Source: an uncultured Bordetella sp. (lineage in GTDB: Bacteria; Pseudomonadota; Gammaproteobacteria; Burkholderiales; JACQAP01). Taken from it: 57,352 nt of DNA. The notes beneath the pieces were generated by a model. The model was given only the letters and a program-made list of their open reading frames with translations. It ran no database searches and had not been told where the DNA came from. The stretch covers positions 687 to 58,038 of the forward strand of contig CAYODB010000001.1 of NCBI GenBank assembly GCA_964402495.1. The letters run 5' to 3'. Position numbers and translations under genes: made by a program. Positions within the stretch are counted from its first letter, which is position 1. Each line of letters starts with the position of its first letter. Positions 40,993 through 54,056 of this stretch are shown in pieces.

Positions 40993-41018
40993 AAAAGCCC
41001 CCGGTCGCGGGGGCTTTT
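40993..41018. terminator. bidirectional rho-independent terminator (cytochrome b561 / ancestral DUF2784 end)
   Basis: aaaagcccccggtcgcgggggctttt: a GC stem flanked by an A-run and a T-run. Confidence 0.75.
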
Positions 41019-41039
41019 GTACCTTCAGGCAAGTCCGGG

Positions 41040-41585
41040 TTATTTTCCGGGCAGGATGCGCTGGAACACACCGTCGCGGTTGATCAGGAGATGCTTGAGG
41101 GCGGCGAGGATATGGATGGCAACCAGCACGATCAGCAAGGTGGCGGTGACGCCGTGGATACCCTGGAGCAAGGAATAAATCTCGCGGCTCTCCCAGCCCA
41201 TGGGCGGTATCTTGAACAGCCCGAAATAAGTAACGCCGTACTTGGTGAACTGAGAAGCCGAAAAACCTGACAGCGGCATCAGGACCAGGCAGAGATACAG
41301 CAAGGCATGGCTGATTTTCGAGGCCTGCACCTGCCAGTCCGGCAGGAATGCCGGCAGCGGGGGGGGCGGATTCTTTGCCCTCCACCACAACCGCAGCAGC
41401 ACCAGGATGGCCACCGTCACGCCGATCGACTTGTGCAGGTTGAAGAAAAAAGTCCGTTCCGGCGTGCCCTTTGGAATGTCGCCCATGTACAAGCCCAGGC
41501 CGATCATTCCAAGCACCAGAACACTGATCAGCCAGTGAAAGGCGATCGCCGGTTTCGTGTAACGCCGGATGCTGCCGTTGCTCAT
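41040..41585 (-). CDS. cytochrome b561 family protein (CybB-like)
   Basis: 181 aa, 4 TMS, conserved His ligands ([24 protein letters not shown]). Confidence 0.9.
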
Positions 41586-41741
41586 TTCTTTTGCCTCTGT
41601 TCTTCCGCCGAATCAGGCTCGTATGTTACGCATCGCCTGACGAATCACAAGCCCGGCGGCGGACCCGCCGCCGCCGCGCGGACTGACGCGGCTGCGGTTG
41701 CCAGATTCGGATCCTTGCGTCGTCAGCAGACGCGCGTACGA

Positions 41742-43889
41742 TCAGAACGCGTAGCTGGCGGAGACGCCGACTTGAAAGTTGCGGCCGGGCGAAGGTTCGT
41801 AATAGGCGAAACCCGAGTCGTTCAGGACGACTGAGCCCGAGTATTTTTCGTCGAAGAGGTTGTTGACCCGCGCAAACTCGGTAAAGCGCCAGCCGCCGCT
41901 TACCTGCTTGAACCCCAGCCTCCAGTTCACCACCGTGTAGGCATCGGCGTAGTCGGTGTTTACGTCGTTGACGTACACCTTGTCCACCCAGCGCGCCTCC
42001 ACCGCCGTGGACATGCCATCGAAACCGGACCAGGCGAGTTCGCCGTAAACGGTGTTTTCCGGAATGCCGGGAATGTTGTTGCCTGCCGGAACAGTGGTAT
42101 TGGGTCCCGCGACAGTGGTACAACTGCCGACACACGCGGCAAATGAATTGTCGAACGTCGCCTTGATATAGGAGTAGGCCAGCAGCCCCTTGAAGCCATT
42201 GCCAAACGCGCTGTCCACCGTCAGTTCGAAACCCTCGCGGCTGGTGCTGTCGACGTTGCGGTAGACAGAACGCCCGCTCGCGAAAGTAAACAGCGCCACC
42301 TCGTCCTTGGTATCGATCTTGAACACCGCGGCGTTGACGCGGGTGTTGGCGCCGACGTACGCCTTGACGCCGACCTCGTAGTTGTTGCTGGTGGACGGTT
42401 TCAGGTCGAAATTCATGCCGGTAACCGAGCCATTGGTCGACGCATAGGCCAGCTCGACATTGGTCGGCGTCTCGAAGCCCTTGCCGGCATTGGCGTAGAC
42501 ATTGAGCGCCGGCGTCACCTTGAACACGACGCCAAGCACCGGCGTGGTCTCGCTGAATTTCAGGCTGCCGCTGTCGTCGGGGTTCGTACCAACCACGAAA
42601 TGGTCATCGCTCTCGAACTCGACAGTGGTATGGCGCACTCCGCCGCTGATGCTCCAACGGTCCGTTATGCCCAGTTCCGCCTGCACAAACTGGTCGAAGT
42701 TGAAGACGCTGTTGTCTTCGTCCCGCCCCAGCGCCCCCTTCACGCCGGCATTATTAGTCCAACTGTTGCGCAGCTCGGTCATGTAGTCATAGTTGATACC
42801 GACGGTGAAGTTGAACGGCTTGCCGGACAGTTCCGACTGCCGTGTCCAGCGCAGATCGAGACCATAAAAGTCCCGGTCCAGCCCCAGTGCACCGCGTCCC
42901 GGAAAACTGAAGTTCTGATAGGCTTCGACGGTGCGCACGCCACCGTATCCGGCCAGACGGATCGTGTCCGCCGTAGTCAGTTTATGATTGAGCACGGCGC
43001 CAACCTGCGAATTCTCGAGATACTCGCGCGTGTTGAACGTGGGGCTCGTTCCCGACTGCGTGGGATCGGCGTCGAATTGCGCCTTGGTCAGACTGCCAGG
43101 ACTCTGCGCCTCCTGGCTCAGGGAGTTCGCAACCAGCGACACGCTGGTGTAGTCGTTAACATCAAGACGCAGCTTCGAATTGAAGTTATCGCGGGTCGCC
43201 GCGCTGTGATCCCGATACCCGTCGGTGTCGTAGCGGGCGACATTGGCGACGTAATTCACGCTGCCCTGCTGTCCGCCGGCCTTGAGGCCGATCTTGCTGC
43301 TGCCGAAGTCACCCACCCAGGCCGAGCCGGTCACGGTATGCTGCTCCGGACCGTCCTCAGTGAAGACGTTGATCACGCCGCCAGAGGAGTTACCGTACAA
43401 CGCCGAAAACGGTCCACGCAGCACTTCGATCTGCTTTGCGGTACCCAAGTCGATATTGCCAGACTGACTCTGGCCATCGGGCATGGTCAGCGGAATGCCG
43501 TCGGCAATGATGCGGATGCCGCGTACGCCAAACGGCGCGCGCGCACCGAAACCGCGAATCGAAATCTGCAGGTCCGAGGCCAGGTTGGTCCGGTCGTTGG
43601 CCACCACGCCCGGCACTCGCACCAGCACCTCGGACGTATTGACCTGCGGTTGCGCCGTCTGAATGGCTTCCTTGTCTATGACGTCGATGGAAACCGGCAA
43701 ATCGAAACTGGACTGTTCAATTCGCGTCGGGGTCACCACGATCGGCGCGAGCCTGACATCTTCCTCCTGGGCATGAATCGCCGGCGCGCCGATCAGTGCA
43801 AGCGCAAGGCACAAGGGTCTGACCGTGAGGCGAAACGGAGTGCGGACGACGGAATCTTTGCGTTGGCGCGAAGTCTTTTTTCGGTTCAT
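41742..43889 (-). CDS. TonB-dependent outer-membrane receptor, YncD/PqqU-like
   Basis: Start at MNRKKTS with a signal peptide ending AIHAQ. Plug (APIVVTPTR, IRGFGARAPFGVRGIRIIADGIPLTMPDGQ, VLRGPFSALYGNSSGG). C-terminal NLFDEKYSGS...YYEPSPGRNFQVGVSASYAF. These blocks resemble E. coli YncD as I remember it. Confidence 0.85.
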   Translation of the reverse strand: MNRKKTSRQRKDSVVRTPFRLTVRPLCLALALIGAPAIHAQEEDVRLAPIVVTPTRIEQSSFDLPVSIDVIDKEAIQTAQPQVNTSEVLVRVPGVVANDRTNLASDLQISIRGFGARAPFGVRGIRIIADGIPLTMPDGQSQSGNIDLGTAKQIEVLRGPFSALYGNSSGGVINVFTEDGPEQHTVTGSAWVGDFGSSKIGLKAGGQQGSVNYVANVARYDTDGYRDHSAATRDNFNSKLRLDVNDYTSVSLVANSLSQEAQSPGSLTKAQFDADPTQSGTSPTFNTREYLENSQVGAVLNHKLTTADTIRLAGYGGVRTVEAYQNFSFPGRGALGLDRDFYGLDLRWTRQSELSGKPFNFTVGINYDYMTELRNSWTNNAGVKGALGRDEDNSVFNFDQFVQAELGITDRWSISGGVRHTTVEFESDDHFVVGTNPDDSGSLKFSETTPVLGVVFKVTPALNVYANAGKGFETPTNVELAYASTNGSVTGMNFDLKPSTSNNYEVGVKAYVGANTRVNAAVFKIDTKDEVALFTFASGRSVYRNVDSTSREGFELTVDSAFGNGFKGLLAYSYIKATFDNSFAACVGSCTTVAGPNTTVPAGNNIPGIPENTVYGELAWSGFDGMSTAVEARWVDKVYVNDVNTDYADAYTVVNWRLGFKQVSGGWRFTEFARVNNLFDEKYSGSVVLNDSGFAYYEPSPGRNFQVGVSASYAF

Positions 43890-43944
43890 TTTCTGCTCTG
43901 CTCTTTCAAGTGCGCCGATCGGCACGTCTACGGAAAAATCGATA

Positions 43945-43975
43945 CAAAAAAAAGGGCTGCTCAAGAGCAGCCCTT
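43945..43975 (-). terminator. rho-independent terminator directly after the orphan pqqA
   Basis: The minus strand reads AAGGGCTGCTCTTGAGCAGCCCTTTTTTTTG. Confidence 0.75.
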
Positions 43976-43992
43976 CGGATAGTGCGTCGCGA

Positions 43993-44064
43993 TCAGCGAT
44001 TGAAGACGTACATCGTGACTTCAAAGCCAAAGCGCATTTCGGTGTATTCGGGTTTCGTCCACAT
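43993..44064 (-). CDS. pqqA: PQQ precursor peptide PqqA, second (orphan) copy
   Basis: Not in the ORF track (23 aa). [33 protein letters not shown] has the conserved E-x3-Y. It has 21/23 identity with the operon copy. Confidence 0.85.
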   Translation of the reverse strand: MWTKPEYTEMRFGFEVTMYVFNR

Positions 44065-44182
44065 GGTGAAGCTCCTTCAGAGAGAGTTAATCGACTTCCC
44101 GGGTCAGGGGCCGTTTCTTTGACCTTGGGTGCATTGTGATTGACCAACCGGTCGGACCCAACAGGAAAAGCCTGAAATAGCG

Positions 44183-44199
44183 CTCATGATTTTCATTAG
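44183..44199. promoter_or_regulatory. Fur-box-like site upstream of the orphan pqqA/receptor
   Basis: ctcatgattttcattag. Its reverse complement contains ATGAAAATCAT, one mismatch from the ATGATAATCAT core of the classical Fur box. A second AT-rich TTATCATTAT lies at about 44216-44235. Confidence 0.35.
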
Positions 44200-44234
44200 C
44201 CGCCATTTGGGAAATGTTAATTTATCATTATTTT

Positions 44235-44903
44235 TCATGGCTTTAACAAGCCCGCGCGAATTGCGATGATGGCGAGTTCCGCGGAATTGGACGCGCCGAG
44301 CTTCTGCTTGATGTTGTACAGGTGGGTGCCGATGGTGCGCGGGCTCAGCGACATGATTTCCGCTATCTCCGCGACCGACTGGCCCTTCGCCAAGGCGAGG
44401 AAGACCTTGAACTCCTTCTCGCTCAGCATATCCACGGGATTGCGCTCGCCGTTGAGCTGCTGCATCGCCAGTTGCTGGGCAATTTCCGGCTCCAGAAAAG
44501 TCTTGCCCTGCTGCACCTGCCGGATGGCTTGCATCAGGGCTTCGGCGGCGCTGCGTTTGGTGAGATAGCCTGCAGCGCCCGCTTTGAGCACCCTGCGCGC
44601 GTGCATGGCGTCTTCGTGAGCGGATAGCACGAGGATCCGCGCCGCCGGTTCCCTTGCCAGGATGCGGTCTATCGCCTCGATACCGCCGATTCCCGGCATC
44701 GAAATGTCCATCACGACCACATCGGGCTTGAGTTCCGGATACTTGCGGCAGGCTTCTTCACCGCTTTCGGCCTCCCCCACCACCTTGATGTCGGACGAGC
44801 CTTCGAGCAGGAGCCTGAAACCCATGCGCACCACCGCATGGTCATCCACCAGCATTACGTTGATCGTGCCGCTTGCCATTTGTGACCCGTTCCCCGCCTT
44901 CAT
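44235..44903 (-). CDS. NarL/FixJ (LuxR-type) response regulator
   Basis: The start ATG overlaps the kinase stop (ATGA). VMLVDDHAVVR, DISMPG and a C-terminal HTH (LSEKEFKVFLALAKGQSVAEIAEIMSLSPRTIGTHLYNIKQKLG). Confidence 0.9.
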   Translation of the reverse strand: MKAGNGSQMASGTINVMLVDDHAVVRMGFRLLLEGSSDIKVVGEAESGEEACRKYPELKPDVVVMDISMPGIGGIEAIDRILAREPAARILVLSAHEDAMHARRVLKAGAAGYLTKRSAAEALMQAIRQVQQGKTFLEPEIAQQLAMQQLNGERNPVDMLSEKEFKVFLALAKGQSVAEIAEIMSLSPRTIGTHLYNIKQKLGASNSAELAIIAIRAGLLKP

Positions 44904-46666
44904 GCCGCTGCCTCGCCGCCCACCATCGCACGGGCCGTCACCGGAATCACCGCACAAACCGTCACGCCCTGACCGGGGCGCGTCTCGATGCTGAAGTCGC
45001 CGTCGAACGCCTGCACCCGCTCGCGCATGCCCAGCAGTCCATATCGCGCCGAATCCCGGTCGCCTTCCTGCGCCAGGCCCTTGCCGTCATCCCGCACCGT
45101 GACCCTGACCACATCGCCGCGCGCGACATCCTGGGCGCGCGACACCAGGACTTCAACACTCCTGGCCGCCGCGTGGCGAACGACATTCGTGAGGCACTCC
45201 TGGACGATCCGGTAGATCGTGATATTGACAGACTCGCCCAGACCTTCCACTTCGCCTTCCATTTTGAGCTCACAGGCGATTTCGGGATGCCGCGCGCGCC
45301 AGGCGGATACCGCGTCGTGCAGCGTCTCGCTCAACCCCAGGTGGTCGAGGGCGGTCGGCCGCAACTGTCGGATGATGCCATGCACGACGTCGTACAGCCG
45401 CGAGGCAATCGAAACGATGGTCTGCGCATTCGAATAAATCTCCGGCGCCGATTCGTTCGTGCGATTGGAAATCGCCGTGCCGATGGTCTTGATGGCCGTG
45501 ATGCATTGACCCAGCTCATCGTGCAGTTCCCTGGCGATCGCACGCCGCTCCTCTTCCAGCCGGCTCTGGATCAGTTGCGTGAGTTTGCGGTTTTGCTCGA
45601 GGTCGCGTTCGGCTTGCTGCGCGAGTTTGTGCTCCGTAATGTCGCGCATGCTGCAGATCTCGCCAATTACGCGGTCGCCGTCCGGCTCGACCAGGGGCGC
45701 GGCGGACAATGCAACATCCACCACCCGGCCGTCACGGGTCAGGCGCTGGGTTTCCTGTATGTCGATCACCTTGCGGCCCTTGACGACTTCCAGGTTCTCC
45801 GCGATTTCGCCGCGCCGCTCAGGAGGCGCCAGCAGTGTCGCGGATCGCCCGACAATCTGGTCGGTGGTGTAGCCGAACATGCGTTCGGCCGCCGGGTTCC
45901 AGAACGAGATCCTGCCTTCGAGGTCGTGAATGATGATGGCGTCGCTGGACTGCCTCGCCACCAGCGCAAGGCGCCGATTTTCCGCCAGGCTTTCCTCCAG
46001 CGTTTGCGCCATTCGATTGAAGATATGCCCTATCGCCTCGAACTCCGGCAAACTGAAACCCGGCAAGCGGGTATCCAGGCGCCCCTGCTCCATCTGCGAG
46101 AGACCGCCCAGGATGGTGCCGATCGGCCGCAGCGAACGGCCGAGAATCCAGAACACCACGACGTTTACCAGAACAAAGAAACCCAGCACGAGCCAGAAAA
46201 AATTCTTCAAGTCATCCCAGGCGTCGAGGATCGCGCGCGACGGATCGGGTGTGATCAACACCGTGCCTCCCGGAAGGTTGAGCCGGAACTCGCCGAGGCC
46301 GGGATTCACCACTGTGGCGAACCAGCGCGGCGCCCAGCGTCCCTGCTTGTAACTCGATGGCGGCGAAGTGTGGATCAGCCTGTCGTTCTCGTCGTACATC
46401 CTGATTTCGTTGGCGCGCACGCGGCCCACGCGCTGCAGGAACGAGAGCAGCGTCTTGTAATGCGATCCGTCGGCAGCTTGCGGTTCGGTATTAGCGATCA
46501 CGGTCTCCAGCAACTGCACCGTGACCCGGGTTCCCGCTTCCATTTCCTCACGTACGGCGTTGCGCGTTTCCTTGATCAGCAGATTGCCCGTGGCGATGGT
46601 GAAAACCGCGATCACCAGGGTGATGACCAGGTTCATGCGGAATCGCAGGCTCAGGCTCTTGAGCAT
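44900..46666 (-). CDS. sensor histidine kinase (TM-HAMP-PAS-HisKA_3-HATPase)
   Basis: Start at MLKSLSLRF. Two TMS, a PAS domain (SDAIIIHDLEGRISFWNPAAERMFGY), H-box ARELHDELGQ, and an ATPase C-terminus. Confidence 0.85.
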   Translation of the reverse strand: MLKSLSLRFRMNLVITLVIAVFTIATGNLLIKETRNAVREEMEAGTRVTVQLLETVIANTEPQAADGSHYKTLLSFLQRVGRVRANEIRMYDENDRLIHTSPPSSYKQGRWAPRWFATVVNPGLGEFRLNLPGGTVLITPDPSRAILDAWDDLKNFFWLVLGFFVLVNVVVFWILGRSLRPIGTILGGLSQMEQGRLDTRLPGFSLPEFEAIGHIFNRMAQTLEESLAENRRLALVARQSSDAIIIHDLEGRISFWNPAAERMFGYTTDQIVGRSATLLAPPERRGEIAENLEVVKGRKVIDIQETQRLTRDGRVVDVALSAAPLVEPDGDRVIGEICSMRDITEHKLAQQAERDLEQNRKLTQLIQSRLEEERRAIARELHDELGQCITAIKTIGTAISNRTNESAPEIYSNAQTIVSIASRLYDVVHGIIRQLRPTALDHLGLSETLHDAVSAWRARHPEIACELKMEGEVEGLGESVNITIYRIVQECLTNVVRHAAARSVEVLVSRAQDVARGDVVRVTVRDDGKGLAQEGDRDSARYGLLGMRERVQAFDGDFSIETRPGQGVTVCAVIPVTARAMVGGEAAA

Positions 46667-46671
46667 GTTTT

Positions 46672-47631
46672 TCAGGCGAGCAGCGACTGCATGCGCCTGG
46701 CCGCAGCGCAAAGGCGCGAGGCAATGGCAGGCTGGGAAGCGGAGTGCCCGCCGCCGGCGACCATTTGCAGATCGGCCAGCGGCAGGCGTTCCGCTACCGC
46801 AACGGCTGCTGCCGGGGGGCAGATCATGTCCATCCGCCCCTGCACGATGACCGCGGGGAACGCGGCGATACGCCAGAGATTGTCGAGCAGTTCGCCCGGG
46901 CGCAGGAAGCAGTCGTTGACCAGATAGTGCAATTGCACGCGGGCACGTGCCAACAGTTCGTCCGCCGGAGGGGCTCCGGTATCCGCCGACAGGTCGCCGG
47001 AACCCATCATCCTGGCCTCGTAGTCGTACCATTTCCGGGCCGCGGACAACGCGGTCGCGGCATCAGGATGGCCGACGAGTTGATGATAACGGGCCAGTGG
47101 CTGAGAGCCCGCGTCGGCGGTGAACTCCGCCCAGGCTTCGGGAATAAAGCGGCGCATCCCGGAAAGATACCACTGGATTTCGTCCGGACTGCCCAGGAAT
47201 ACGCCACGCAGAATCATGCCGGCGACGGCTTCAGGGTGGGCAATCGCGTATGCCAGCGCCAGGGTGCTGCCCCAGGAACCGCCGAACAGGAGCCAGCGCT
47301 GTACGCCCAGGCTCCGGCGCAGTTGTTCGACATCGGCAACGAGATGCTGGGTGGTATTGGCAACAATGAATCCTGCGGGAGTAGACAGCCCGCAGCCGCG
47401 CTGGTCGAAGAGAATGATGCGGTAGAACTGCGGATCAAAGAAACGGCGGTGGGCCGGGCGGGTACGGCTGCCGGGTCCGCCGTGAAGGAACAGCACTGGA
47501 AAACCGCGCGCATTGCCGCTTTCCTCGAAATAGATGCGATGGCCCGCATCCATCACCAGCCAGTCCTTGCGATAAGGCTCGATCTCGGGGAAAAACGCCT
47601 CGCCCGCGGATGGATCTGGATCCACGTTCAT
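46672..47631 (-). CDS. pip: prolyl aminopeptidase (proline iminopeptidase)
   Basis: VLFLHGGPG, FDQRGCGLSTP and GGSWGSTLALAYA are canonical Pip motifs. Confidence 0.9.
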   Translation of the reverse strand: MNVDPDPSAGEAFFPEIEPYRKDWLVMDAGHRIYFEESGNARGFPVLFLHGGPGSRTRPAHRRFFDPQFYRIILFDQRGCGLSTPAGFIVANTTQHLVADVEQLRRSLGVQRWLLFGGSWGSTLALAYAIAHPEAVAGMILRGVFLGSPDEIQWYLSGMRRFIPEAWAEFTADAGSQPLARYHQLVGHPDAATALSAARKWYDYEARMMGSGDLSADTGAPPADELLARARVQLHYLVNDCFLRPGELLDNLWRIAAFPAVIVQGRMDMICPPAAAVAVAERLPLADLQMVAGGGHSASQPAIASRLCAAARRMQSLLA

Positions 47632-47648
47632 ACCGCCTTGCGGAAACT

Positions 47649-48812
47649 TCAGGAGTCCTGCAGTTTGAAAACGATGGGGACGCGAACGGTGCGCGCTGTG
47701 CCGCGCAGACCTTCCGGGGCGCGCGGCAAGGGTGAGGCGCGACGAACCATGTTGAGGGCGGCTTCGTCCAGGATGTCCCGACCGCTGCTTTCGATGATCG
47801 AGATATCCTTCACCTTGCCGTCGGCGGACAGGCTGAGTCCGACAACGGCGGTGCCCTGCCAGCCCTGGCGTCTGGCGCGATCGGGATACTTCTCATGACG
47901 CTTGATCAGGTCGGCGAGGCTTTTCTCGTAGCTGCTTGTGAGAGTACGCTCGGCGGCCGGCTCCGTTCTCGCCGCCTGGACAGGCGGTGCTGGAGCAACG
48001 ACGGCAGGCGCCTGCACGCTCGCCTGCGGAACCGCGGGCTGGGGAGCATCCCTCTGCGGCGGCGTGACCGCTGCGATTTGCGGCTGGACAGTGGGCGCCG
48101 GTTGCGGCGGCGGCGCGACACGCGGCACAGGAGACTCGGGCTGGGGAGCATGCTTCTGCGGCGGAGTTACCGCTGCGATCTGCGGCTGGACAGTGAGCGC
48201 CGGTTGCGGCGGCGGCGCGACACGCGGCACAGGAGACTCGGGCTGGACTTGCGCACGGGGTTCCAGGTTCGGCGCTGGTTGCGGGACGGGTTTTGGCACC
48301 ACGACCGGATCCGGTCGCTGCTCGGGCCGCGGAATCATCTGGATGACCTCGGTCTTGGGCGCAGGCGGCACATCAGGCGCCGGTTGACGAACCACAGGCT
48401 CCGGTGAGCGCACCACAGGGTCCGGTGGGGACACTACGGGCTCGGGCTGCCGGACCTTCGGCTCCGGCCGTATTGCCGGTTTCTCTAGCACCGGCGGCGG
48501 CGCCAATGGTTCGGCCACCGGCGGCGGCAATGGTTCGACCACCGGTGGCGCCTGCACCACCTCGGGCCTGAGTTCCGGCTGGCGCCTGACGGGGGCCGGC
48601 ACGACGGGCTGCGGCAGTTCCTCCTTCAGGATTTCGACGTTGAGCACCTGGGGAACTTCAATGACGACCGCACGGAATCCCGGCACAGCCGCGATGAGCG
48701 CCGCGTGGACAAGCAACGACCCCACGAGCGCGACCTTGAACGGCCGTTCGCGGTACCACCCCGTCAGGGGCGAGGGATAAAATCCCCCCTGGTCGAGCGC
48801 AATGTCAGTCAT
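47649..48812 (-). CDS. tonB: TonB-family energy transducer with an extended Pro-rich spacer
   Basis: N-terminal TM (ALVGSLLVHAALIAAV), about 240 aa of Pro-rich repeats, and a C-terminal TonB domain (YPDRARRQGWQGTAVVGLSLSADGKV...PLP). Confidence 0.85.
   Translation of the reverse strand: MTDIALDQGGFYPSPLTGWYRERPFKVALVGSLLVHAALIAAVPGFRAVVIEVPQVLNVEILKEELPQPVVPAPVRRQPELRPEVVQAPPVVEPLPPPVAEPLAPPPVLEKPAIRPEPKVRQPEPVVSPPDPVVRSPEPVVRQPAPDVPPAPKTEVIQMIPRPEQRPDPVVVPKPVPQPAPNLEPRAQVQPESPVPRVAPPPQPALTVQPQIAAVTPPQKHAPQPESPVPRVAPPPQPAPTVQPQIAAVTPPQRDAPQPAVPQASVQAPAVVAPAPPVQAARTEPAAERTLTSSYEKSLADLIKRHEKYPDRARRQGWQGTAVVGLSLSADGKVKDISIIESSGRDILDEAALNMVRRASPLPRAPEGLRGTARTVRVPIVFKLQDS
48038..48241. repeat. 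2 x 102-bp tandem duplication inside tonB
   Basis: Units starting gggctggggagcat at 48038 and 48140. They encode PQPESPVPRVAPPPQPA(L/P)TVQPQIAAVTPPQ(KH/RD)A twice. Confidence 0.8.
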
Positions 48813-48862
48813 GGTTGAAGGTTAGTGCAAGCACTTGAGACAAGTAAAGTTTCACTGCCAAA

Positions 48863-48879
48863 CTCATGATAATCATGAG
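48863..48879. promoter_or_regulatory. perfect palindrome resembling a Fur box in the tonB/pqqA divergent region
   Basis: CTCATGATAATCATGAG contains ATGATAATCAT, the centre of the GATAATGATAATCATTATC consensus. It lies about 50 nt upstream of the tonB start. Confidence 0.45.
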
Positions 48880-49040
48880 ACTCAATTGGTGATTTGCCTG
48901 TGTGTCCAGCGGGCTTCATTACGCACAATGAGTGCGGCTCACAGGATCAAAGATTGGGGCAGCGCGGCCGCCTGCAACACCCCGATCCCGTGAATCGGCA
49001 AGTAGCGCACTGCAACTTCAATCATCATGGAGGAATCATC

Positions 49041-49112
49041 ATGTGGACAAAGCCCGAGTACACCGAAATGCGTTTCGGTTTTGAAGTCACGATGTACATC
49101 GCCAACCGCTAA
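49041..49112 (+). CDS. pqqA: PQQ precursor peptide PqqA (operon copy)
   Basis: [32 protein letters not shown]. Confidence 0.9.
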
Positions 49113-49131
49113 ATTGGCGGAGCGGTGAACG

Positions 49132-49159
49132 AAAGCCCCGCACTGGGGCTTTTGTTTTT
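49132..49159 (+). terminator. stem-loop with T-run between pqqA and pqqB (attenuating terminator)
   Basis: aaagccccgcactggggcttttgttttt. Confidence 0.7.
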
Positions 49160-49213
49160 ATTGCAGTTCGATTCTGGGTGTTTCGGAATCGGTTTTGAAC
49201 AAAGAGAGATGCA

Positions 49214-50128
49214 ATGAGAATAAGGGTTCTGGGCGCCGCAGCAGGCGGGGGCTTCCCGCAGTGGAACTGCAACTGCCGTCTTTGCGACGGCGTGCGCAAA
49301 GGCAGCATTCGCGCAACGGCACGCACCCAGTCGTCCATCGCCGTGAGCGGTGACGGCGTGAACTGGATCCTGTTCAACGCCTCCCCCGATTTTCTGGCGC
49401 AGTACAAGAGCTTTCCCGAATTGCAGCCGGCGCGCGGCATTCGCGATACGGCGATCCGGTCGATCGTCCTGATGGATGCCCAGATCGATCACACCACCGG
49501 GCTGCTGATGCTGCGCGAGGGCAAGCCGCTCGAGATCTATTGCACCAACATGGTCCGCGAGGACCTCACCACCGGCAATCCGCTGTTCAACATCCTCGGC
49601 CACTATTGCGGCGTGAACTGGCACCAATTACCGACGGCGCCCGGGAGCTGTTTTCAGGTCATCGGCGCGGAGCAACTTTCCTTCACCGCCGTGCCTCTCA
49701 AAAGCAAGGCGCCGCCCTATTCCCCGCATCGCGACAATCCGCATGAAGGTGACAACATCGGCATGCGCATCACGGATACGCTCTCGGGAAATGTGTTTTT
49801 TTACGCTCCCGGCCTGGGCGAAATCGAGCCCCACCTCAAGCCCTTCCTGGAGGAAGCGGACTGCCTGATGGTGGATGGCACTTTCTGGACCGACGACGAA
49901 ATGATCCGGCTCGGGGTCTCGAAGAAGCATGCCCGCGACATCGGCCACCTGCCGCAGTCGGGCCCGGGTGGAATGATCGAAGTGCTCAGGCCCCTGAAGG
50001 CGGCGCGCAAGGTGCTCATCCACATCAACAACACCAACCCGATACTCGACGAAGATTCCGCGGAGCGGCGTGAACTGTCCGCCGCCGGCCTCGAAGTCGC
50101 GTTCGACGGGATGGACGTGAAGCTCTGA
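49214..50128 (+). CDS. pqqB: PQQ biosynthesis protein B (MBL fold)
   Basis: [24 protein letters not shown]... 304 aa. Confidence 0.95.
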
Positions 50129-50143
50129 ACGGAGACGAAGAAC

Positions 50144-50863
50144 ATGGGCGGCGCCGACAATTTACCTTGGAACAAGCAGGAATTCGAAGCGCAGCTCCGG
50201 GCCAAGGGCGACCGCTATCACATCCATCATCCCTTCCACGTGGCCATGAACAGCGGCAAGTCCACCCGCGAACAGGTTCAGGGCTGGGTGTACAACCGTT
50301 TCTATTACCAGATCAGCATCCCGATCAAGGATGCCGCCGTGCTGTCCAACATGATCGACCGCGACCAGCGCCGCGAATGGATACTGCGTATCATCGACCA
50401 CGATGGTCAGAAGGGCGAGGAAGGCGGTATCGAGGCCTGGCTGCGCCTGGGCGAGGCCTGTGGCCTCAAGCGCGCGGATATCACGTCGCTCAGGCACGTG
50501 CTCCCCGGTGTCCGGTTTGCGGTGGACGCGTACGTGAATTTCGCCCGGCGCGCGCCCTGGCAGGAAGCGGTCTGCTCGTCGCTGACGGAACTGTTCGCGC
50601 CGGAAATCCACAAGAAACGGCTTGAGGGCTGGCCCCAGTTCTATCCCTGGATAGACAGCGAGGGTTATTCCTATTTCCGCAAGCGGCTTGCGGAAGCGCG
50701 ACGCGATGTGGAGCATGGCCTGCGCGTTACGCTCGACTACTTCAAGACCCGCGAAGAGCAGGAGCGGGCCCTGGGCATCCTGCAGTTCAAGCTCGACGTC
50801 TTATGGAGCATGCTCGACGCCATGCAGATCAACTATGGAATCGGCGAAACGCGCAATGTCTGA
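50144..50863 (+). CDS. pqqC: pyrroloquinoline-quinone synthase
   Basis: [32 protein letters not shown]. 239 aa. Confidence 0.95.
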
Positions 50864-51158
50864 GACCGCGAACACGTCGGCGTTCACCGACGATACAGTG
50901 TTCGAGCTGCAGCGCCACTTCCGCTTCCAGTGGGAGCCGGCACAGCAGGGATATGTCCTGTTGTATCCCGAGGGGATGGTGAAGCTTCCCGGCAGTTCGG
51001 GAGAAATCATGAAGCGCATCGACGGCAAGTTGAGCGTGCGCGGAATTCTGGAAGATTTGCAGGCTGCATTCCCCGGCGCCGACCTGCGCGGCGATGTATT
51101 TGGTTTTCTGGAGCACGTCCATGGAAAAGGCTGGATCCGTCCCAAACAAACCGGGTAA
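50856..51158 (+). CDS. pqqD: PQQ biosynthesis peptide chaperone PqqD
   Basis: The ATG overlaps the pqqC stop by 8 nt. [36 protein letters not shown]. Confidence 0.85.
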
Positions 51159-52299
51159 TCCGCTCTGGCTGCTGGCCGAGATCACGTACAAGTGCCCGCT
51201 GCACTGCGTGTTCTGCTACAACCCGGTCGACTACACCAATTACGGGCAGGAGCTCTCGACAGACGACTGGCTGCGGGTACTGCGCCAGGGCCGCGAGCTC
51301 GGCGCCACGCAACTGGGTTTCTCCGGCGGCGAACCGCTGATGCGCGACGACCTCGAAGTGCTGGTCCGGGAAGCGCGCACCCTGGGTTACTACTCCAACC
51401 TGATTACGTCGGGCGTCGGACTCAGCGAAAAGCGCATTGCCGCGTTCAAGGAAGGCGGCCTGGACCACATCCAGCTTTCCTTCCAGGATTCGACGCGCGA
51501 GCTGAACGATTTCCTGTCGAGCACCAAAACCTTCGACCTCAAGCAGAAGGTCGCGAAACTCATCAAGCAGTACGACTATCCGATGGTGCTGAACTGCGTG
51601 CTTCACCGGCACAACATCGACCACGTCCAGCAGATCCTGGAGATGGCCGAGGCCATGGACGCGGAATACGTGGAGCTGGCCAACACCCAGTACTACGGCT
51701 GGGCTTACGTGAACCGCGATCAGTTGCTGCCGACGCGGGAACAGCTCAAGCGCGCCGAGGAAGTCACCAACCGCTTCCGCGAGCGTATCGGCAACAAGAT
51801 GAAAATATTCTTCGTCGTGCCGGATTATTACGAAGAGCGGCCGAAGGCGTGCATGAACGGCTGGGGCGCGCTGTTCCTCACGGTCACCTCCGACGGCCTC
51901 GCGCTGCCCTGCCATGAGGCGCGCCAGCTTCCCGGACTGAGTTTCCCGAACGTGCGTGACCATGACCTGCGCTGGATCTGGTATGACTCGCCCGGTTTCA
52001 ACCAGTATCGTGGCGATGGCTGGATGAAAGAGCCGTGCCGTTCCTGTCCGGAGAAAGTCAAGGACTTCGGCGGCTGCCGCTGCCAGGCCTACATGCTCAC
52101 CGGCGATGCGGCCAACGCCGATCCGGTATGCAGTTTGTCACCGCACCACAAGCTGGTCACCGACGTGGTCGACAAGGCGCAGAATCCTGTCGCTGCCACC
52201 GTCGAAGTGAAACCCATCCTGTTCCGGGATGACAAGAACTCGCGTGCCCTGAGCAAGGCTGGCGCCAACAAGCCCGACCTCAGCAAAACACCCGCCTGA
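51121..52299 (+). CDS. pqqE: PQQ biosynthesis radical-SAM/SPASM enzyme PqqE
   Basis: PLWLLAEITYKCPLHCVFCYNP (CxxxCxxC) and a C-terminal SPASM Cys cluster (CRSCPEKVKDFGGCRCQAY). Confidence 0.9.
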   Translation: MEKAGSVPNKPGNPLWLLAEITYKCPLHCVFCYNPVDYTNYGQELSTDDWLRVLRQGRELGATQLGFSGGEPLMRDDLEVLVREARTLGYYSNLITSGVGLSEKRIAAFKEGGLDHIQLSFQDSTRELNDFLSSTKTFDLKQKVAKLIKQYDYPMVLNCVLHRHNIDHVQQILEMAEAMDAEYVELANTQYYGWAYVNRDQLLPTREQLKRAEEVTNRFRERIGNKMKIFFVVPDYYEERPKACMNGWGALFLTVTSDGLALPCHEARQLPGLSFPNVRDHDLRWIWYDSPGFNQYRGDGWMKEPCRSCPEKVKDFGGCRCQAYMLTGDAANADPVCSLSPHHKLVTDVVDKAQNPVAATVEVKPILFRDDKNSRALSKAGANKPDLSKTPA

Positions 52300-52315: not shown

Positions 52316-53248
52316 ATGAACCAGGCGTCCGCTCCGCCGCTGGCCGTCCGCGCGCGTGGACTCGTCAAGCGTTACGGCGAGGTTCTCGCCGTGAACGGCC
52401 TCGACCTTGACATTCCGTCCGGCCAGTTCTTCGGGCTCCTCGGTCCCAACGGCTCGGGCAAGACTTCCACCATCCACATGCTCGCCACGCTGATCCGGCC
52501 GAACGGCGGAAGCGCGGCCGTTGCGGACCATGATGTCGTGCGGGATCCGGTCAGGGTGCGGGGCTCGATCGGCCTGGTGTTCCAGGATTCCGCGCTCGAC
52601 CGCACGCTTTCAGTCGCGGAGAACCTGCGCTTCGCCGGACTGCTGCATAACCTGGCTCCCTCGGTGATCGAGGAGCGTGCCGCTCCATTGCTCGACATGT
52701 TCGGCCTCGCCGACAAGCGCCGGCAGCCGGTCGGTACGTTATCGGGCGGCATGCGCCGGGCGCTGGACATCGTGCGCGGGTTGATCCATCACCCGAAAAT
52801 CCTGTTCCTCGACGAACCGACCATCGGCCTCGACCTGCCAAACCGGCGCAAGATCTGGCGCTTCATTGAAAAACTGCGCGCCCAGACCGGCATGACCGTA
52901 CTGCTTACCACGCACTATCTGGAGGAAGCCGATGGCTGCGACCGGGTAGCATTCATCAGGGGGGGCAAACTGGTGCAGGCCGGGCCGCCACGCGAACTCA
53001 TCGATCAGCTCGGCAAGTATGTGGTGGAGATCGAAAGCGACGATCCCGCCGCATTGGCAGCGCGTCTCGCGCCGGTGCTGGGCAATGGACTGAAAGACGG
53101 CGACACCGTTCATTTCCGCTATGCCGATGAAGATGTATCCCGACTGGCGGAGCTGCAATCCGGCCTCGGGCCGCTGGTCCGTGCATTGCGCTGGCGGCGG
53201 CCCAATCTGAACGACGTCTTTCTCTGGGTGGCGGAAGGCAGGGCCTGA
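52316..53248 (+). CDS. ABC transporter ATP-binding protein (ABC-2/DrrA-like exporter type)
   Basis: Walker A GPNGSGKTS, signature LSGGMRR, Walker B ILFLDEPT. Begins 17 nt after pqqE. Confidence 0.9.
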   Translation: MNQASAPPLAVRARGLVKRYGEVLAVNGLDLDIPSGQFFGLLGPNGSGKTSTIHMLATLIRPNGGSAAVADHDVVRDPVRVRGSIGLVFQDSALDRTLSVAENLRFAGLLHNLAPSVIEERAAPLLDMFGLADKRRQPVGTLSGGMRRALDIVRGLIHHPKILFLDEPTIGLDLPNRRKIWRFIEKLRAQTGMTVLLTTHYLEEADGCDRVAFIRGGKLVQAGPPRELIDQLGKYVVEIESDDPAALAARLAPVLGNGLKDGDTVHFRYADEDVSRLAELQSGLGPLVRALRWRRPNLNDVFLWVAEGRA

Positions 53249-53249
53249 C

Positions 53250-54056
53250 ATGCACTGGCGTCCCGTATACGCGGTCCTGGAACGCGAAGTCGTGCGCATG
53301 ATGCGCCAGCGCACGCGCTTGCTGTCGGCCATGGTGCGGCCCCTGATCTGGCTGTTCGTCATCGGCGCCGGTTTCGGCGCGGTACTGGACCAGCCGGGCG
53401 TGAACTACCAGCAGTTCCTGATACCGGGCGTGCTCGGCATGACCATGCTGTTCGGGGCGATGCTGGCGGCGCTGACGATGGTGTACGACAAGGAATCGGG
53501 CGTGATGCGCATGCTGATCATCGCGCCCTTTGCCCACTACTGGATCGTGGTCGCCAAATTGCTGGCGGCAGCGCTTGCCGCGATCATTCAGGCCTTGCTG
53601 TTGCTGGTATTGCTGGCCGCGCTGGGCTACCTCACCGCCGACACGCGATTCGGCCTGCTTGCTGCGGCTCTGGTGATGACTTCACTGGCCTGCGGCGGAA
53701 TCGGCATGCTGGTCGCGGCGTTTACCCGCACGCTCGACAACTTCGCCGCCATCATGAATTTCGTGATCTTCCCGGTGTTCTTCCTGTCCGGATCGCTGTA
53801 TCCCGTGAGCCGGCTGCCGGCGGCGCTCAAATTCGTGGCATTGGCCAACCCCTATACCTATGGGGTCGACCTGCTGAAGCATGCCGTCAGCGACAAGCTG
53901 CCGGTGGGCATGGGGGCGGACTTTGGAGTGGGACTGGACTTTCTGGTTCTGGCCGGCTTTTCAGCCGCGGCGCTGATCATCGCGAGCTGGCGTTTCTCCC
54001 GAGAGAGCGCTTATGAACCGATGATCCACATCCTGACCGGTAAGCGCGGCGGCTGA
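53250..54056 (+). CDS. ABC-2 type transporter permease
   Basis: 268 aa, 6 TMS. Starts 2 nt after the ATPase stop. Confidence 0.9.
   Translation: MHWRPVYAVLEREVVRMMRQRTRLLSAMVRPLIWLFVIGAGFGAVLDQPGVNYQQFLIPGVLGMTMLFGAMLAALTMVYDKESGVMRMLIIAPFAHYWIVVAKLLAAALAAIIQALLLLVLLAALGYLTADTRFGLLAAALVMTSLACGGIGMLVAAFTRTLDNFAAIMNFVIFPVFFLSGSLYPVSRLPAALKFVALANPYTYGVDLLKHAVSDKLPVGMGADFGVGLDFLVLAGFSAAALIIASWRFSRESAYEPMIHILTGKRGG

What the first reader, a model, noticed from the sequence alone, without database searches (positions are those of the whole stretch)
41742..44235. Second, free-standing pqqA copy wired in front of a YncD/PqqU-like TonB-dependent receptor
The peptide gene:
- A 23-codon ORF at 43993-44064 (minus strand), below the track cut-off, encodes [23 protein letters not shown], a bona fide PqqA with the E-x3-Y crosslink pair.
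- It has its own GAAGGAG RBS and a strong terminator (43945-43975).
- It lies 5 kb away from the pqqABCDE operon and on the opposite strand.
- Compared with the operon copy it differs at 7 synonymous codons but only 2 amino acids (V20I, F21A). That pattern suggests purifying selection on both copies rather than decay.

The receptor:
- A TonB-dependent receptor gene starts 103 nt downstream of the pqqA stop and 55 nt after its terminator, on the same strand.
- Its plug and C-terminal blocks (DGIPLTMPDGQ, RGPFSALYGNSSGG, YYEPSPGRNF) resemble what I remember of E. coli YncD/PqqU, the PQQ uptake receptor.
- A Fur-box-like site lies upstream of the peptide gene.

A PQQ producer that pairs a precursor-peptide gene with a candidate PQQ importer, in a leader-peptide-plus-terminator arrangement, is not something I know to be described.
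Basis: partly seen in the sequence, partly recalled or inferred. Interest (0 to 1): 0.7.

Follow-up and report, generated by a model that had tools for sequence, protein, structure and literature searches.

The report
Extra pqqA gene heading PQQ importer
A soil Burkholderiales contig carries a second, intact gene for the PQQ precursor peptide between a conserved regulator-controlled promoter and the gene for the outer-membrane PQQ importer, which suggests that making the cofactor and recapturing it are switched on together.

Summary
The 23-codon ORF at 43993-44064(-) is a bona fide PqqA. A conserved intrinsic terminator follows it. The receptor 103 nt downstream is a PqqU/YncD homologue: E=5e-150 to E. 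coli YncD, next-best PDB hit 2.6e-13, and all PQQ-binding signature residues are present.

The pairing is conserved. It occurs in 11 independent loci with receptor identity 44-92%. Two lineages have since deleted pqqU and one has fused pqqA in frame to it.

The "Fur-like" site is an invariant palindrome, CTCATGA-AAA-TCATGAG. It lies 44-45 nt upstream of a -10-like CAnAAT. The same module precedes pqqA1BCDE, and in relatives that lack pqqA2 it precedes pqqU directly. It almost always lies just downstream of a NarL/LuxR response-regulator gene whose recognition helix is invariant.

Best model: one two-component-controlled PQQ regulon. In this clade, pqqA2 plus its terminator sits in the pqqU leader. 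That would give high peptide output and low, co-regulated importer output by read-through.

I found no evidence for leader-peptide attenuation. Extra pqqA copies, PqqU in producers, and pqqU-pqq synteny in Burkholderiales were already known. This is a new variant of a known kind.

The parts
41742..43889 (-). pqqU: TonB-dependent PQQ importer homologue, 715 aa
   Evidence: PDB 6v81 (YncD) E=5e-150 and 9c4o (PqqU) 1e-147; the next hit, FecA, is 2.6e-13. NCBIfam NF041535 PqqU scores 607 bits and is by far the best family, but falls below the 1200-bit equivalog cut-off. Pfam Plug and barrel domains are present. Signature residues are F120, R319, R374 and R540; K274 is replaced by E289.
43941..43976 (-). 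Intrinsic terminator after pqqA2 (GAAGGGCTGCTC-TTGA-GCAGCCCTTT plus a T-run)
   Evidence: It is conserved after pqqA2 in 10 loci, with 100% of cells paired and 4 pairs showing compensatory changes.
43993..44064 (-). pqqA2: free-standing PQQ precursor peptide gene (23 codons)
   Evidence: TIGR02107 scores 46.3 bits against a cut-off of 20. Purifying selection is shown. Gene callers never call it.
44072..44078 (-). Shine-Dalgarno sequence GAAGGAG of pqqA2
   Evidence: AAGGAG is conserved in the alignment of 10 loci.
44133..44138 (-). -10-like hexamer CACAAT of the pqqA2(-pqqU) promoter (inferred)
   Evidence: It lies at a fixed 44-45 nt from the palindrome in all promoter copies.
44183..44199 (-).
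   Evidence: Invariant in 10 of 10 loci. Three matches occur in the window against 0.17 expected by chance. It matches 15 of 19 positions of the Fur consensus.
44235..44903 (-). NarL/LuxR-family response regulator, 222 aa; candidate binder of the palindrome
   Evidence: The orthologous gene ends 20-45 nt before the operator in nearly all loci that carry the operator. The recognition helix LSPRT(I/V)GTHLYNIKQKL is invariant only in those loci.
44900..46666 (-). Sensor histidine kinase (HAMP-PAS-HisKA_3-HATPase)
   Evidence: Its position is conserved in related loci.
46672..47631 (-). Prolyl-aminopeptidase-type alpha/beta hydrolase
   Evidence: TIGR01249 scores 294.9 bits against a cut-off of 259.75. 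It is conserved in the cluster.
47649..48812 (-). Cluster-specific TonB paralogue
   Evidence: TonB_C domain. It is conserved in the cluster.
48863..48879 (.). Operator O1: perfect palindrome CTCATGATAATCATGAG between tonB and pqqA1
   Evidence: It lies 44 nt upstream of CACAAT (48924-48929). The same layout is present in 9 of 9 clade loci.
49041..49112 (+). pqqA1: the operon copy of the precursor peptide gene
   Evidence: TIGR02107 scores 49.4 bits.
49131..49161 (+). Hairpin plus T-rich tail between pqqA1 and pqqB
   Evidence: GAAAGCCCC...GGGGCTTTC is conserved in 9 loci. The simple scanner did not flag it as a terminator.
49214..52299 (+). pqqB (49214-50128), pqqC (50144-50863), pqqD (about 50856-51158), pqqE (51094-52299)
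   Evidence: The NCBIfam equivalog cut-offs for PqqB, PqqC and PqqE are all passed. The pqqD reading frame is shown.
52316..54056 (+). ABC ATPase plus ABC-2 permease following pqqE (candidate exporter)
   Evidence: The same pair follows pqqE in L161, L164, L167 and L177.
41040..41585 (-). Cytochrome b561 gene downstream of pqqU
   Evidence: It lies directly downstream of pqqU homologues in many Betaproteobacterial loci.

Best explanation
The region is one arm of a self-contained PQQ regulon.

**The promoter module.** A palindromic operator, CTCATGA-AAA-TCATGAG, lies 44-45 nt upstream of a CAnAAT -10 element and has no conserved -35. It occurs twice in the window:
- in front of pqqA1BCDE and the ABC transporter genes, where it also faces the divergent tonB-peptidase-kinase-regulator operon;
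- in front of pqqA2.

The operator centre lies about 65 nt upstream of the inferred transcription start. The most likely binder is the adjacent NarL/LuxR-type response regulator, acting as an activator under control of its histidine kinase. The signal is unknown.

**What is made.** Transcription from the second module produces a short, abundant pqqA2 mRNA that ends at a strong intrinsic terminator. The PqqA2 peptide enters the normal PqqD/E-B-C pathway as additional stoichiometric substrate, because one peptide is consumed per PQQ molecule.

**How pqqU is expressed.** Only 55 nt separate the terminator from the pqqU start codon, and no promoter is recognisable in that stretch. In relatives that lack pqqA2, the same module sits directly in front of pqqU. 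pqqU, and probably cytochrome b561, is therefore most likely expressed by the small fraction of transcripts that read through the terminator. This would put the importer and its dedicated TonB under the same switch as PQQ synthesis, but at a much lower level. It mirrors the pqqA1-hairpin-pqqB arrangement.

**Shown here:** gene identities, conservation of the pairing, conservation of the terminator, the shared operator and its spacing, the regulator-operator co-occurrence, and purifying selection.

**Inferred:** which protein binds the operator, the transcription start site, read-through, and the direction of regulation.
For: - **Identities.** Both peptides pass the PqqA equivalog cut-off. The receptor is PqqU-like and carries the PQQ-binding signature used by Munder et al., PMC12124388.
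- **Conserved pairing.** pqqA2 lies directly upstream of pqqU in the window, L161, L165, L164, L167, L169, L001, L002, L081, L046 and L182-184, with receptor identity of 44-92%. The gene order pqqEDCBA1 <-> tonB-hydrolase-HK-RR-pqqA2-pqqU is conserved.
- **Selection on the peptide.** pN/pS is 0.049/0.396 for pqqA2 and 0.016/0.278 for pqqA1. Paralogue-specific synonymous codons and the C-terminal signature (YVFNR against YIANR) are shared across genomes, so the duplication is old.
- **Terminator.** It is conserved, with 100% pairing and 4 compensatory pairs. pqqA1 has its own conserved hairpin.
- **Operator.** It is invariant in 10 of 10 pqqA2 promoters. There is a second copy at pqqA1. It lies at a fixed 44-45 nt from the -10-like element at pqqA2, at pqqA1, and directly at pqqU in L006, L008, L009 and L010.
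- **Regulator.** Its gene lies immediately upstream of the operator. Its recognition helix is invariant only where the operator is present.
- **No separate pqqU promoter.** No sigma-70-like promoter is predicted in the 55-nt spacer.
- **Ancestral adjacency.** An in-frame pqqA::pqqU fusion and a pqqU C-terminal remnant after pqqA2 both show that the two genes were adjacent ancestrally.
- **Precedent.** LuxR-type regulators control pqq genes in Pseudomonas (AgmR/PedR1; PMC12997753).
Against: - There are no transcript data. Both the transcription start and the read-through are inferred.
- The terminator looks strong (an 11-bp GC-rich stem and T8) and could insulate pqqU completely.
- In several relatives the terminator-pqqU spacer is 130-280 nt long and contains TAGAAT- or CAGAAT-like hexamers that could be separate pqqU promoters.
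- In L177 and L179 the operator-pqqA2-terminator unit persists after pqqU has been deleted. pqqA2 therefore does not need pqqU.
- The operator core ATGAnAATCAT is Fur-like, so Fur or another factor could bind it instead of the response regulator.
- P. aeruginosa pqqU appears to be constitutive (bioRxiv 10.64898/2026.04.27.721047).
- All loci come from metagenomes or MAGs. No cultured strain was found.
Confidence: 0.55

Rival explanations
1. Gene clustering only. pqqA2 is an independent extra-dosage precursor gene whose transcript ends completely at its terminator. pqqU is transcribed from its own promoter in the spacer. The adjacency reflects regulon clustering, not transcriptional coupling.
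For: The terminator is strong and conserved. The operator-pqqA2-terminator unit survives without pqqU in L177 and L179. Long spacers containing -10-like TAGAAT or CAGAAT hexamers occur in L002, L169, L046, L001 and L167. Orphan pqqA copies with their own regulation are known (PMC11317620, PMC10848612).
Against: In the window and in L161 only 55 nt separate the terminator from the pqqU ATG, and no promoter is predicted there. In relatives without pqqA2 the same operator-promoter module drives pqqU directly. This implies that pqqA2 was inserted into the pqqU leader. No second operator copy lies between the terminator and pqqU.
Confidence: 0.28
2. pqqA2 acts as a regulatory leader peptide, and its translation controls formation of the terminator and so pqqU expression, as in classical attenuation.
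For: A short ORF followed by a terminator and then a structural gene resembles an attenuator in layout.
Against: The ORF is a fully conserved PqqA under purifying selection, with no regulatory codon run. The stop codon lies 18-25 nt before the stem, and the 5' arm has no conserved alternative pairing partner; its predicted partners differ in every locus. The operon copy has the same peptide-hairpin layout before pqqB. There is no Rfam match.
Confidence: 0.04
3. The palindrome is a Fur-family (metal-responsive) operator. Under this model pqqA1, pqqA2/pqqU and tonB are controlled by iron or another metal and not by the neighbouring two-component system.
For: The sites match 15 of 19 and 13 of 19 positions of the E. 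coli Fur consensus, and the core ATGATAATCAT is identical at O1. TonB and TonB-dependent receptors are classical Fur targets (established knowledge). O1 lies 51 nt upstream of the tonB ATG, where it could overlap that promoter.
Against: The flanks CTC...GAG are invariant across orders, whereas Fur boxes are usually degenerate. The fixed position about 65 nt upstream of the inferred start fits an activator site better than an operator overlapping the promoter. The site co-occurs tightly with one response-regulator orthologue group that has an invariant recognition helix.
Confidence: 0.13

Closest known systems
Canonical pqqA-hairpin-pqqB layout of pqq operons (for example Methylobacterium extorquens pqqAB and Klebsiella pqqABCDEF). 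The abundant short pqqA transcript plus rarer read-through transcript is from my own knowledge of Ramamoorthi & Lidstrom 1995, which I did not re-read here.
   Same: The precursor-peptide gene comes first, a stem-loop or terminator follows directly, and downstream genes depend on read-through. The window's own pqqA1-pqqB junction shows this layout.
   Different: Here the gene after the hairpin is the outer-membrane importer pqqU, not a biosynthetic enzyme.
Orphan or multiple pqqA copies (Methylovorus sp. MP688 with five; M. extorquens AM1 pqqA2 and pqqA3; Beijerinckiaceae RH AL1 with three). Sources: PMC11317620, PMC10848612.
   Same: Extra free-standing precursor genes exist outside the operon and are differentially expressed. 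PqqA supply can limit the rate of PQQ synthesis.
   Different: In those reports no fixed partnership with a PQQ receptor or a shared operator is described. Here the copy holds a conserved position between a regulator-controlled promoter and pqqU.
PqqU/YncD of E. coli and PA2289 of P. aeruginosa (PMC12124388; bioRxiv 10.1101/2022.06.07.495086; bioRxiv 10.64898/2026.04.27.721047).
   Same: A TonB-dependent transporter 39-41% identical to E. coli PqqU. The Y99(F), R304, R365 and R536 equivalents are conserved.
   Different: It is encoded in a PQQ producer, inside the biosynthetic island, with a dedicated TonB. K274 is replaced by Glu. It is probably regulated, whereas P. aeruginosa pqqU appeared constitutive.
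pqqU-pqq operon synteny in four Burkholderiales genomes (Munder et al. 2025, fig. S11; PMC12124388).
   Same: pqqU and PQQ biosynthesis genes are co-located in Burkholiales-type genomes, and the authors suggest co-regulation.
   Different: The text and legend I could read mention no second pqqA, terminator, operator or two-component system. The figure itself was not available. That paper describes the same orientation for the genes, whereas here the two arms are divergent.
Siderophore gene islands (biosynthesis, exporter, TonB-dependent receptor, TonB and a local regulator).
   Same: The functional logic is the same: make a secreted small molecule, export it, recapture it through a dedicated receptor and TonB, all under one local switch.
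   Different: The molecule is a redox cofactor derived from a ribosomal peptide. No sigma/anti-sigma signalling domain is present on the receptor.
LuxR-type regulators of PQQ and quinoprotein genes in Pseudomonas (AgmR/PedR1/ErbR; PedS2-PedR2). Source: PMC12997753.
   Same: A NarL/LuxR-family response regulator, with a histidine kinase, is proposed to activate pqq genes.
   Different: Orthology was not established: the best NCBIfam hits fall below cut-off. The operator found here has not been described for those regulators, to my knowledge.

Membership tests
PqqA (PQQ precursor peptide) | Matches the curated family model TIGR02107 above its cut-off | tested here: met
   pqqA2 scores 46.3 bits and pqqA1 49.4 bits; the cut-off is 20.
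PqqA (PQQ precursor peptide) | Conserved Glu-X3-Tyr cross-link pair in a peptide of about 20-40 aa | tested here: met
   E15-V-T-M-Y19 in both copies. It is invariant in all orthologues.
PqqA (PQQ precursor peptide) | Co-occurs with pqqB, pqqC, pqqD and pqqE | tested here: met
   PqqB, PqqC and PqqE pass their equivalog cut-offs 5 kb away. The pqqD reading frame is shown.
PqqA (PQQ precursor peptide) | Is translated and converted to PQQ | not testable with these tools
   This needs pqqA1 and pqqA2 deletion mutants and PQQ quantification.
PqqU / YncD PQQ transporter | TonB-dependent transporter architecture (plug, 22-strand barrel, TonB box) | tested here: met
   Pfam Plug and TonB_dep_Rec_b-barrel domains. 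The alignment to 6v81 is full-length.
PqqU / YncD PQQ transporter | Closest to PqqU and not to siderophore, haem or B12 receptors | tested here: met
   E=5e-150 and 1e-147 to YncD and PqqU, against 2.6e-13 for FecA. The PqqU model scores 607 bits against 166 bits for the next family.
PqqU / YncD PQQ transporter | PQQ-binding signature Y99 (F or W allowed), R304 and R365, as used by Munder et al. (PMC12124388) | tested here: met
   F120, R319 and R374. R536 is also conserved, as R540.
PqqU / YncD PQQ transporter | NCBIfam NF041535 equivalog cut-off (1200 bits) | tested here: not met
   607 bits. The cut-off is tuned to close orthologues; identity to E. coli PqqU is 39-41%.
PqqU / YncD PQQ transporter | K274 contacting PQQ (semi-conserved) | tested here: not met
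   The equivalent residue is E289, in the window and its two closest relatives only. Munder et al. report that Glu is common at this position and propose that it allows a metal to bind together with PQQ.
PqqU / YncD PQQ transporter | Transports PQQ | not testable with these tools
   This needs complementation of an E. coli pqqU pts mutant, or a binding assay.
Intrinsic (Rho-independent) terminator | GC-rich hairpin followed directly by a U-tract | tested here: met
   An 11-bp stem followed by T8. The predicted hairpin energy is about -18 kcal/mol.
Intrinsic (Rho-independent) terminator | Structure conserved, with compensatory changes | tested here: met
   In 10 loci, 100% of cells are paired and 4 pairs have changes on both sides. 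None of 500 shuffles reached the observed values.
Leader-peptide transcription attenuator | A mutually exclusive anti-terminator structure coupled to translation of the leader | tested here: not met
   The predicted partners of the 5' arm differ in every locus. The stop codon lies 18-25 nt before the stem.
Fur box | Similarity to the 19-bp consensus GATAATGATAATCATTATC | tested here: inconclusive
   15 of 19 (O2) and 13 of 19 (O1) positions match, and the core is identical at O1. The flanks are invariantly CTC...GAG.
Fur box | Overlaps the -35/-10 region of the repressed promoter | tested here: not met
   At the pqqA1, pqqA2 and pqqU promoters the site ends 44-45 nt upstream of the -10-like hexamer. 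For the divergent tonB promoter, overlap remains possible.
NarL/LuxR response-regulator operator | An inverted repeat next to the regulator gene, co-inherited with it | tested here: met
   The 7-3-7 palindrome lies 20-45 nt after the regulator's stop codon. The recognition helix is invariant only in loci that carry the operator.
NarL/LuxR response-regulator operator | Direct binding and activation | not testable with these tools
   This needs a gel-shift assay or DAP-seq, and reporter assays.

The most novel reading that the evidence does not exclude
In these soil Burkholderiales, PQQ is handled like a siderophore-type public good or metallophore. One two-component-controlled regulon would:
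- make it (two precursor genes plus pqqBCDE);
- export it (the ABC-2 transporter after pqqE);
- recapture it through a dedicated TonB and a PqqU variant whose K274E change (E289) lets it import a PQQ-metal complex (calcium or a lanthanide).

The kinase would sense periplasmic PQQ or metal, closing an autoinduction loop. Placing pqqA2 in the pqqU leader would be the device that sets the ratio of producer to importer.
Probability: 0.15. Interest if true: 0.8.

Novelty: new variant of a known kind. Interest (0 to 1): 0.55.

Why it matters
- **Regulation of PQQ uptake is unknown.** The only direct study, in P. aeruginosa, found pqqU to be constitutive. This locus offers a concrete and widely conserved candidate circuit: a sensor kinase, a response regulator, a 17-bp operator, two pqqA promoters and pqqU. 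It can be tested with standard reporter and gel-shift experiments.
- **It bears on PQQ as a common good.** The circuit suggests how a producer balances secretion of PQQ against its recapture.
- **The gene is missed by annotation.** Gene callers did not call pqqA2 as a 23-aa gene in any locus examined. In a few loci the region was picked up as an over-extended 69-77-aa ORF with a PqqA Pfam hit. Annotation-based synteny surveys can therefore overlook it.
- **A possible link to metals.** The Glu variant at the PQQ-contacting Lys position bears on the open question of whether PQQ-metal complexes are imported.

Tried and rejected
- **Plasmid search.** A megablast of the locus against plasmid records found no match.
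- **Metagenome-contig scan.** Using the receptor as query, it returned almost no close relatives. Only L081 and the partial L083 were useful. Close relatives had to be fetched one at a time with the look-up of encoding contigs.
- **Rfam.** A permissive-threshold scan of 41000-49500 found nothing.
- **Literature search on pqqA terminators.** It was badly specified and returned nothing relevant. The statement about abundant short pqqA transcripts in other organisms therefore rests on my own knowledge.
- **The simple terminator scanner.** It did not flag the pqqA1 hairpin. RNAfold and cross-locus comparison did show it.
- **Anti-terminator search.** No conserved partner was found, so the attenuation model was rejected.
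- **Decaying-pseudogene reading of pqqA2.** Rejected on the pN/pS values.
- **The E. coli pqqU-yncE intergenic region.** It has no copy of the palindrome, even allowing 4 mismatches.
- **Homology search with the response regulator.** It gave only automatic "NarL family / UvrY" labels and no characterised orthologue.
- **The 761-aa TonB-dependent receptor next to some clusters.** It is not PqqU-like: 23-28% identity and no signature residues.

Full report
**1. The observation**

Reading the minus strand of 43700-44500 and searching all six frames by regular expression confirm two PqqA-type micro-ORFs in the window.
- The orphan copy lies at 43993-44064(-) and encodes [23 protein letters not shown].
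- The operon copy lies at 49041-49112(+) and encodes ...MYIANR. It is followed by pqqB, pqqC, pqqD and pqqE.

Both peptides pass the curated PqqA equivalog model, at 46.3 and 49.4 bits against a cut-off of 20.

The other sequence features are also as described.
- GAAGGAG lies 7 nt upstream of the orphan ATG.
- An 11-bp GC-rich hairpin with T8 follows the stop codon.
- The next ATG, at 43889, opens a 715-aa TonB-dependent receptor gene 103 nt after the pqqA2 stop.

**2. The receptor**

A sequence search of the PDB gives E. coli YncD (6v81) at E=5e-150 and PqqU (9c4o) at 1e-147. The next hit, FecA, is at 2.6e-13. The NCBIfam PqqU model scores 607 bits, against 166 bits for the generic siderophore-receptor model. 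This is still below the strict 1200-bit equivalog cut-off.

I fetched E. coli pqqU, aligned it, and checked the residues that Munder et al. (PMC12124388) used as the PqqU signature:

| E. coli PqqU | Window protein |
|---|---|
| Y99 | F120 (Phe is allowed) |
| R304 | R319 |
| R365 | R374 |
| R536 | R540 |
| K274 | E289 |

The K274-to-Glu change occurs only in the window and its two closest relatives. Munder et al. suggest that this substitution may allow a metal to bind together with PQQ.

The receptor is therefore a PqqU-family member, about 39-41% identical to the E. coli protein. It is not a ferric-siderophore receptor.

**3. Conservation of the pairing**

A scan of GTDB species representatives with a PqqU alignment returned 80 loci. 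A micro-ORF search of these loci gave three results.
- L001 and L002 have a pqqA 98-103 nt upstream of the receptor and a second pqqA about 5 kb away on the other strand.
- L046 has two tandem pqqA genes upstream of the receptor.
- About 70 more distant homologues have no pqqA upstream.

L081, from the metagenome collection, shows the same layout. Closer relatives fetched individually all show the order pqqEDCBA1 <-> tonB, hydrolase, kinase, regulator, pqqA2, pqqU, and usually cytochrome b561. These are L161, L165, L164, L167/168 and L169/170.

Sampling anchored on the response regulator instead of the receptor gave two further patterns.
- L182-184 carry pqqA2 followed by pqqU.
- L177/178 and L179-181 keep the operator, pqqA2 and the terminator, but pqqU is gone. 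L179 retains a recognisable PqqU C-terminal remnant (...YYEPAPGRDYILGFSAGYSF*).

Two metagenomic homologues (P0013 and P0015; loci L163 and L162) have the first 21 codons of pqqA fused in frame to the receptor's signal sequence. In a rough neighbour-joining tree this fusion nests inside the pqqA2-pqqU clade. Its PqqA-derived part evolves faster than the rest of the protein: 4 of 21 residues differ against 20 of 693 (Fisher p=0.004).

Adjacency of pqqA2 and pqqU is therefore ancestral in this group and has been remodelled repeatedly.

**4. Selection on pqqA2**

Across nine orthologous pairs, pooled pN/pS is 0.049/0.396 for pqqA2 and 0.016/0.278 for pqqA1.

Two features are shared across genomes whose receptors are only 59-64% identical.
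- Paralogue-specific synonymous codons: AAA-CCC-GAA in pqqA2 against AAG-CCT-GAG in pqqA1.
- The C-terminal tail: YVFNR in pqqA2 against YIANR in pqqA1.

The duplication is therefore old, and both copies are maintained by selection.

**5. Terminator or attenuator**

The hairpin after pqqA2 is present in all ten loci aligned. All 97 cells form standard pairs, four pairs show compensatory changes, and no shuffle reached the observed values.

The operon copy pqqA1 is also followed, in every locus, by its own conserved hairpin and T-rich tail before pqqB (GAAAGCCCC...GGGGCTTTC).

I looked for an anti-terminator and found no conserved one. The best upstream partner of the terminator's 5' arm lies in a different place in each locus, and the stop codon lies 18-25 nt before the stem. 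Rfam finds nothing in the region.

This is the ordinary precursor-gene/leaky-terminator layout of RiPP and pqq operons. It is not a translation-coupled attenuator.

**6. The "Fur-like" site is a shared operator**

Aligning the regulator-pqqA2 intergenic regions from ten loci shows one invariant block, CT(A/C)ATGAAAATCATGAG, within otherwise diverged DNA.

The window holds a second, perfect copy, CTCATGATAATCATGAG, at 48863-48879 between tonB and pqqA1. The window has three matches where 0.17 are expected by chance.

In every case the palindrome ends 44-45 nt upstream of a [C/G]AnAAT hexamer:
- at pqqA2, in 10 of 10 loci;
- at pqqA1, in 9 of 9 clade loci and also in L004, L006, L008 and L023;
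- directly in front of pqqU in L006, L008, L009 and L010, which have no pqqA2.

No conserved -35 element is present. If the hexamer is the -10 element, the palindrome centre lies at about -65, which is typical of a class I activator site.

The orthologous NarL/LuxR response-regulator gene ends 20-45 nt upstream of the palindrome in nearly all loci that carry the operator. Its helix-turn-helix segment LSPRT(I/V)GTHLYNIKQKL is invariant across orthologues of 62-100% overall identity. It differs in the roughly 50%-identical homologues found at loci without the operator.

The site does resemble a Fur box, with 15 of 19 and 13 of 19 matches. However, its invariant CTC/GAG flanks, its upstream position and its linkage to the regulator all favour the response regulator. 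Fur is not excluded, particularly for the divergent tonB promoter.

**7. Model**

The cluster appears to be a self-contained PQQ regulon with two arms.
- Arm 1: operator-promoter, pqqA1, hairpin, pqqBCDE and an ABC-2 transporter.
- Arm 2, divergent: tonB, an S33 peptidase-like hydrolase, the kinase and the regulator, followed by operator-promoter, pqqA2, terminator, pqqU and cytochrome b561.

Three observations bear on how pqqU is transcribed.
- The same promoter module drives pqqU directly in relatives that lack pqqA2.
- Only 55 nt separate the terminator from the pqqU ATG in the window.
- No sigma-70-like promoter is predicted in that stretch.

I infer that pqqA2 plus its terminator sits inside what was the pqqU leader, and that pqqU is expressed by read-through. 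This would give a large excess of precursor peptide over receptor and would place both under the same switch as biosynthesis.

The main rival model is full insulation by the terminator, with a separate pqqU promoter. Two findings keep it alive: some relatives have long spacers with -10-like hexamers, and the pqqA2 unit persists without pqqU in L177 and L179.

**8. Comparison with published work**

The following are already published.
- Multiple and orphan pqqA genes (PMC11317620; PMC10848612).
- PqqU in about 23% of... more precisely, PQQ biosynthesis genes in 23% of PqqU-carrying genomes, and pqqU-pqq synteny in four Burkholderiales genomes (PMC12124388).
- LuxR-type regulators of pqq genes in Pseudomonas (PMC12997753).
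- P. aeruginosa pqqU appeared to be constitutive.

None of the texts I read describes the following.
- A pqqA as the promoter-proximal gene of pqqU.
- The shared palindromic operator with its fixed spacing.
- The link between that operator and the response regulator.
- The pqqA::pqqU fusion.

One likely reason is annotation. Gene callers did not call pqqA2 as a 23-aa gene in any locus, although a few loci have an over-extended ORF with a PqqA hit.

**9. Verdict**

The finding is a new variant of known kinds. It has moderate-to-good interest, because it offers the first concrete and testable regulatory circuit for PQQ uptake in producers.

All evidence is comparative and comes from metagenomic contigs. 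The window itself matches ENA ERZ505514 NODE_520. Transcription, regulator binding and transport all remain to be shown.

Noticed in passing
L162:4147-6291 and L163:186-2330 (proteins P0015 and P0013): The first 21 codons of pqqA are fused in frame to the pqqU signal sequence ([21 protein letters not shown]|LVLGGPIVAMSPVNAQEE...). The fusion is found in two contigs that are 96.5% identical, with no pqq operon or operator nearby. The PqqA-derived part evolves faster than the rest of the protein (4 of 21 against 20 of 693 residue differences, p=0.004), which suggests a relic reused as the N-terminal part of the signal peptide.
   Followed up: partly
window 41742-43889(-), residue E289: The Lys that contacts PQQ in E. 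coli PqqU (K274) is Glu in the window and its two closest relatives, and Lys in 18 other clade members. Munder et al. propose that this substitution creates a site for a metal (calcium or a lanthanide) to bind together with PQQ.
   Followed up: partly
window 52316-54056(+): An ABC ATPase and an ABC-2 permease directly follow pqqE, here and in L161, L164, L167 and L177. They are a candidate PQQ exporter and are comparable in type to PedB and PedC of the Pseudomonas ped cluster.
   Followed up: no
window 41040-41585(-); also L002, L042, L050, L052, L059, L062, L065, L068, L078 and L079: A cytochrome b561 gene lies directly downstream of pqqU homologues in many Betaproteobacterial loci, including ones with no pqq genes nearby. 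The pairing is conserved and unexplained.
   Followed up: partly
window 46672-47631(-): A prolyl-aminopeptidase-type (S33) hydrolase passes the TIGR01249 cut-off and is conserved between tonB and the kinase in every cluster. No pqqF or pqqG is present in the window, so this enzyme is a candidate PqqA-processing peptidase.
   Followed up: no
L179:6951-7178, and L177 after position 10883: In two lineages pqqU has been deleted. L179 retains a remnant encoding the last roughly 45 residues (...YYEPAPGRDYILGFSAGYSF*). The operator, pqqA2 and terminator remain intact in both.
   Followed up: yes
L046:4255-4420: Two tandem pqqA genes 22 nt apart lie between the operator-promoter and a single terminator, upstream of a pqqU that is 44% identical to the window's.
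   Followed up: partly
window 48813-48862, and the same region in L161, L165, L167, L164, L169 and L001: On the tonB side of operator O1 there are conserved blocks (AACTTTACTT ... CTTGCACTAACCT). A TAnnnT hexamer ends only 6 nt before the tonB ATG. The tonB operon mRNA may therefore be leaderless or nearly so, and may share O1 with pqqA1.
   Followed up: no
L165:12189-14474, L177:11027-13312 and L179:7233-9518: A second, unrelated 761-aa TonB-dependent receptor lies convergent to the cluster in several relatives. It is 23-28% identical to PqqU and lacks the PQQ signature residues. Its substrate is unknown.
   Followed up: partly
All related loci (gene-call tables): Automatic gene calling leaves the regulator-pqqU gap empty, so pqqA2 is missing from these protein sets. 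In a few loci the region is called as an over-extended 69-77-aa ORF. Annotation-based surveys of pqq synteny will undercount such copies.
   Followed up: yes
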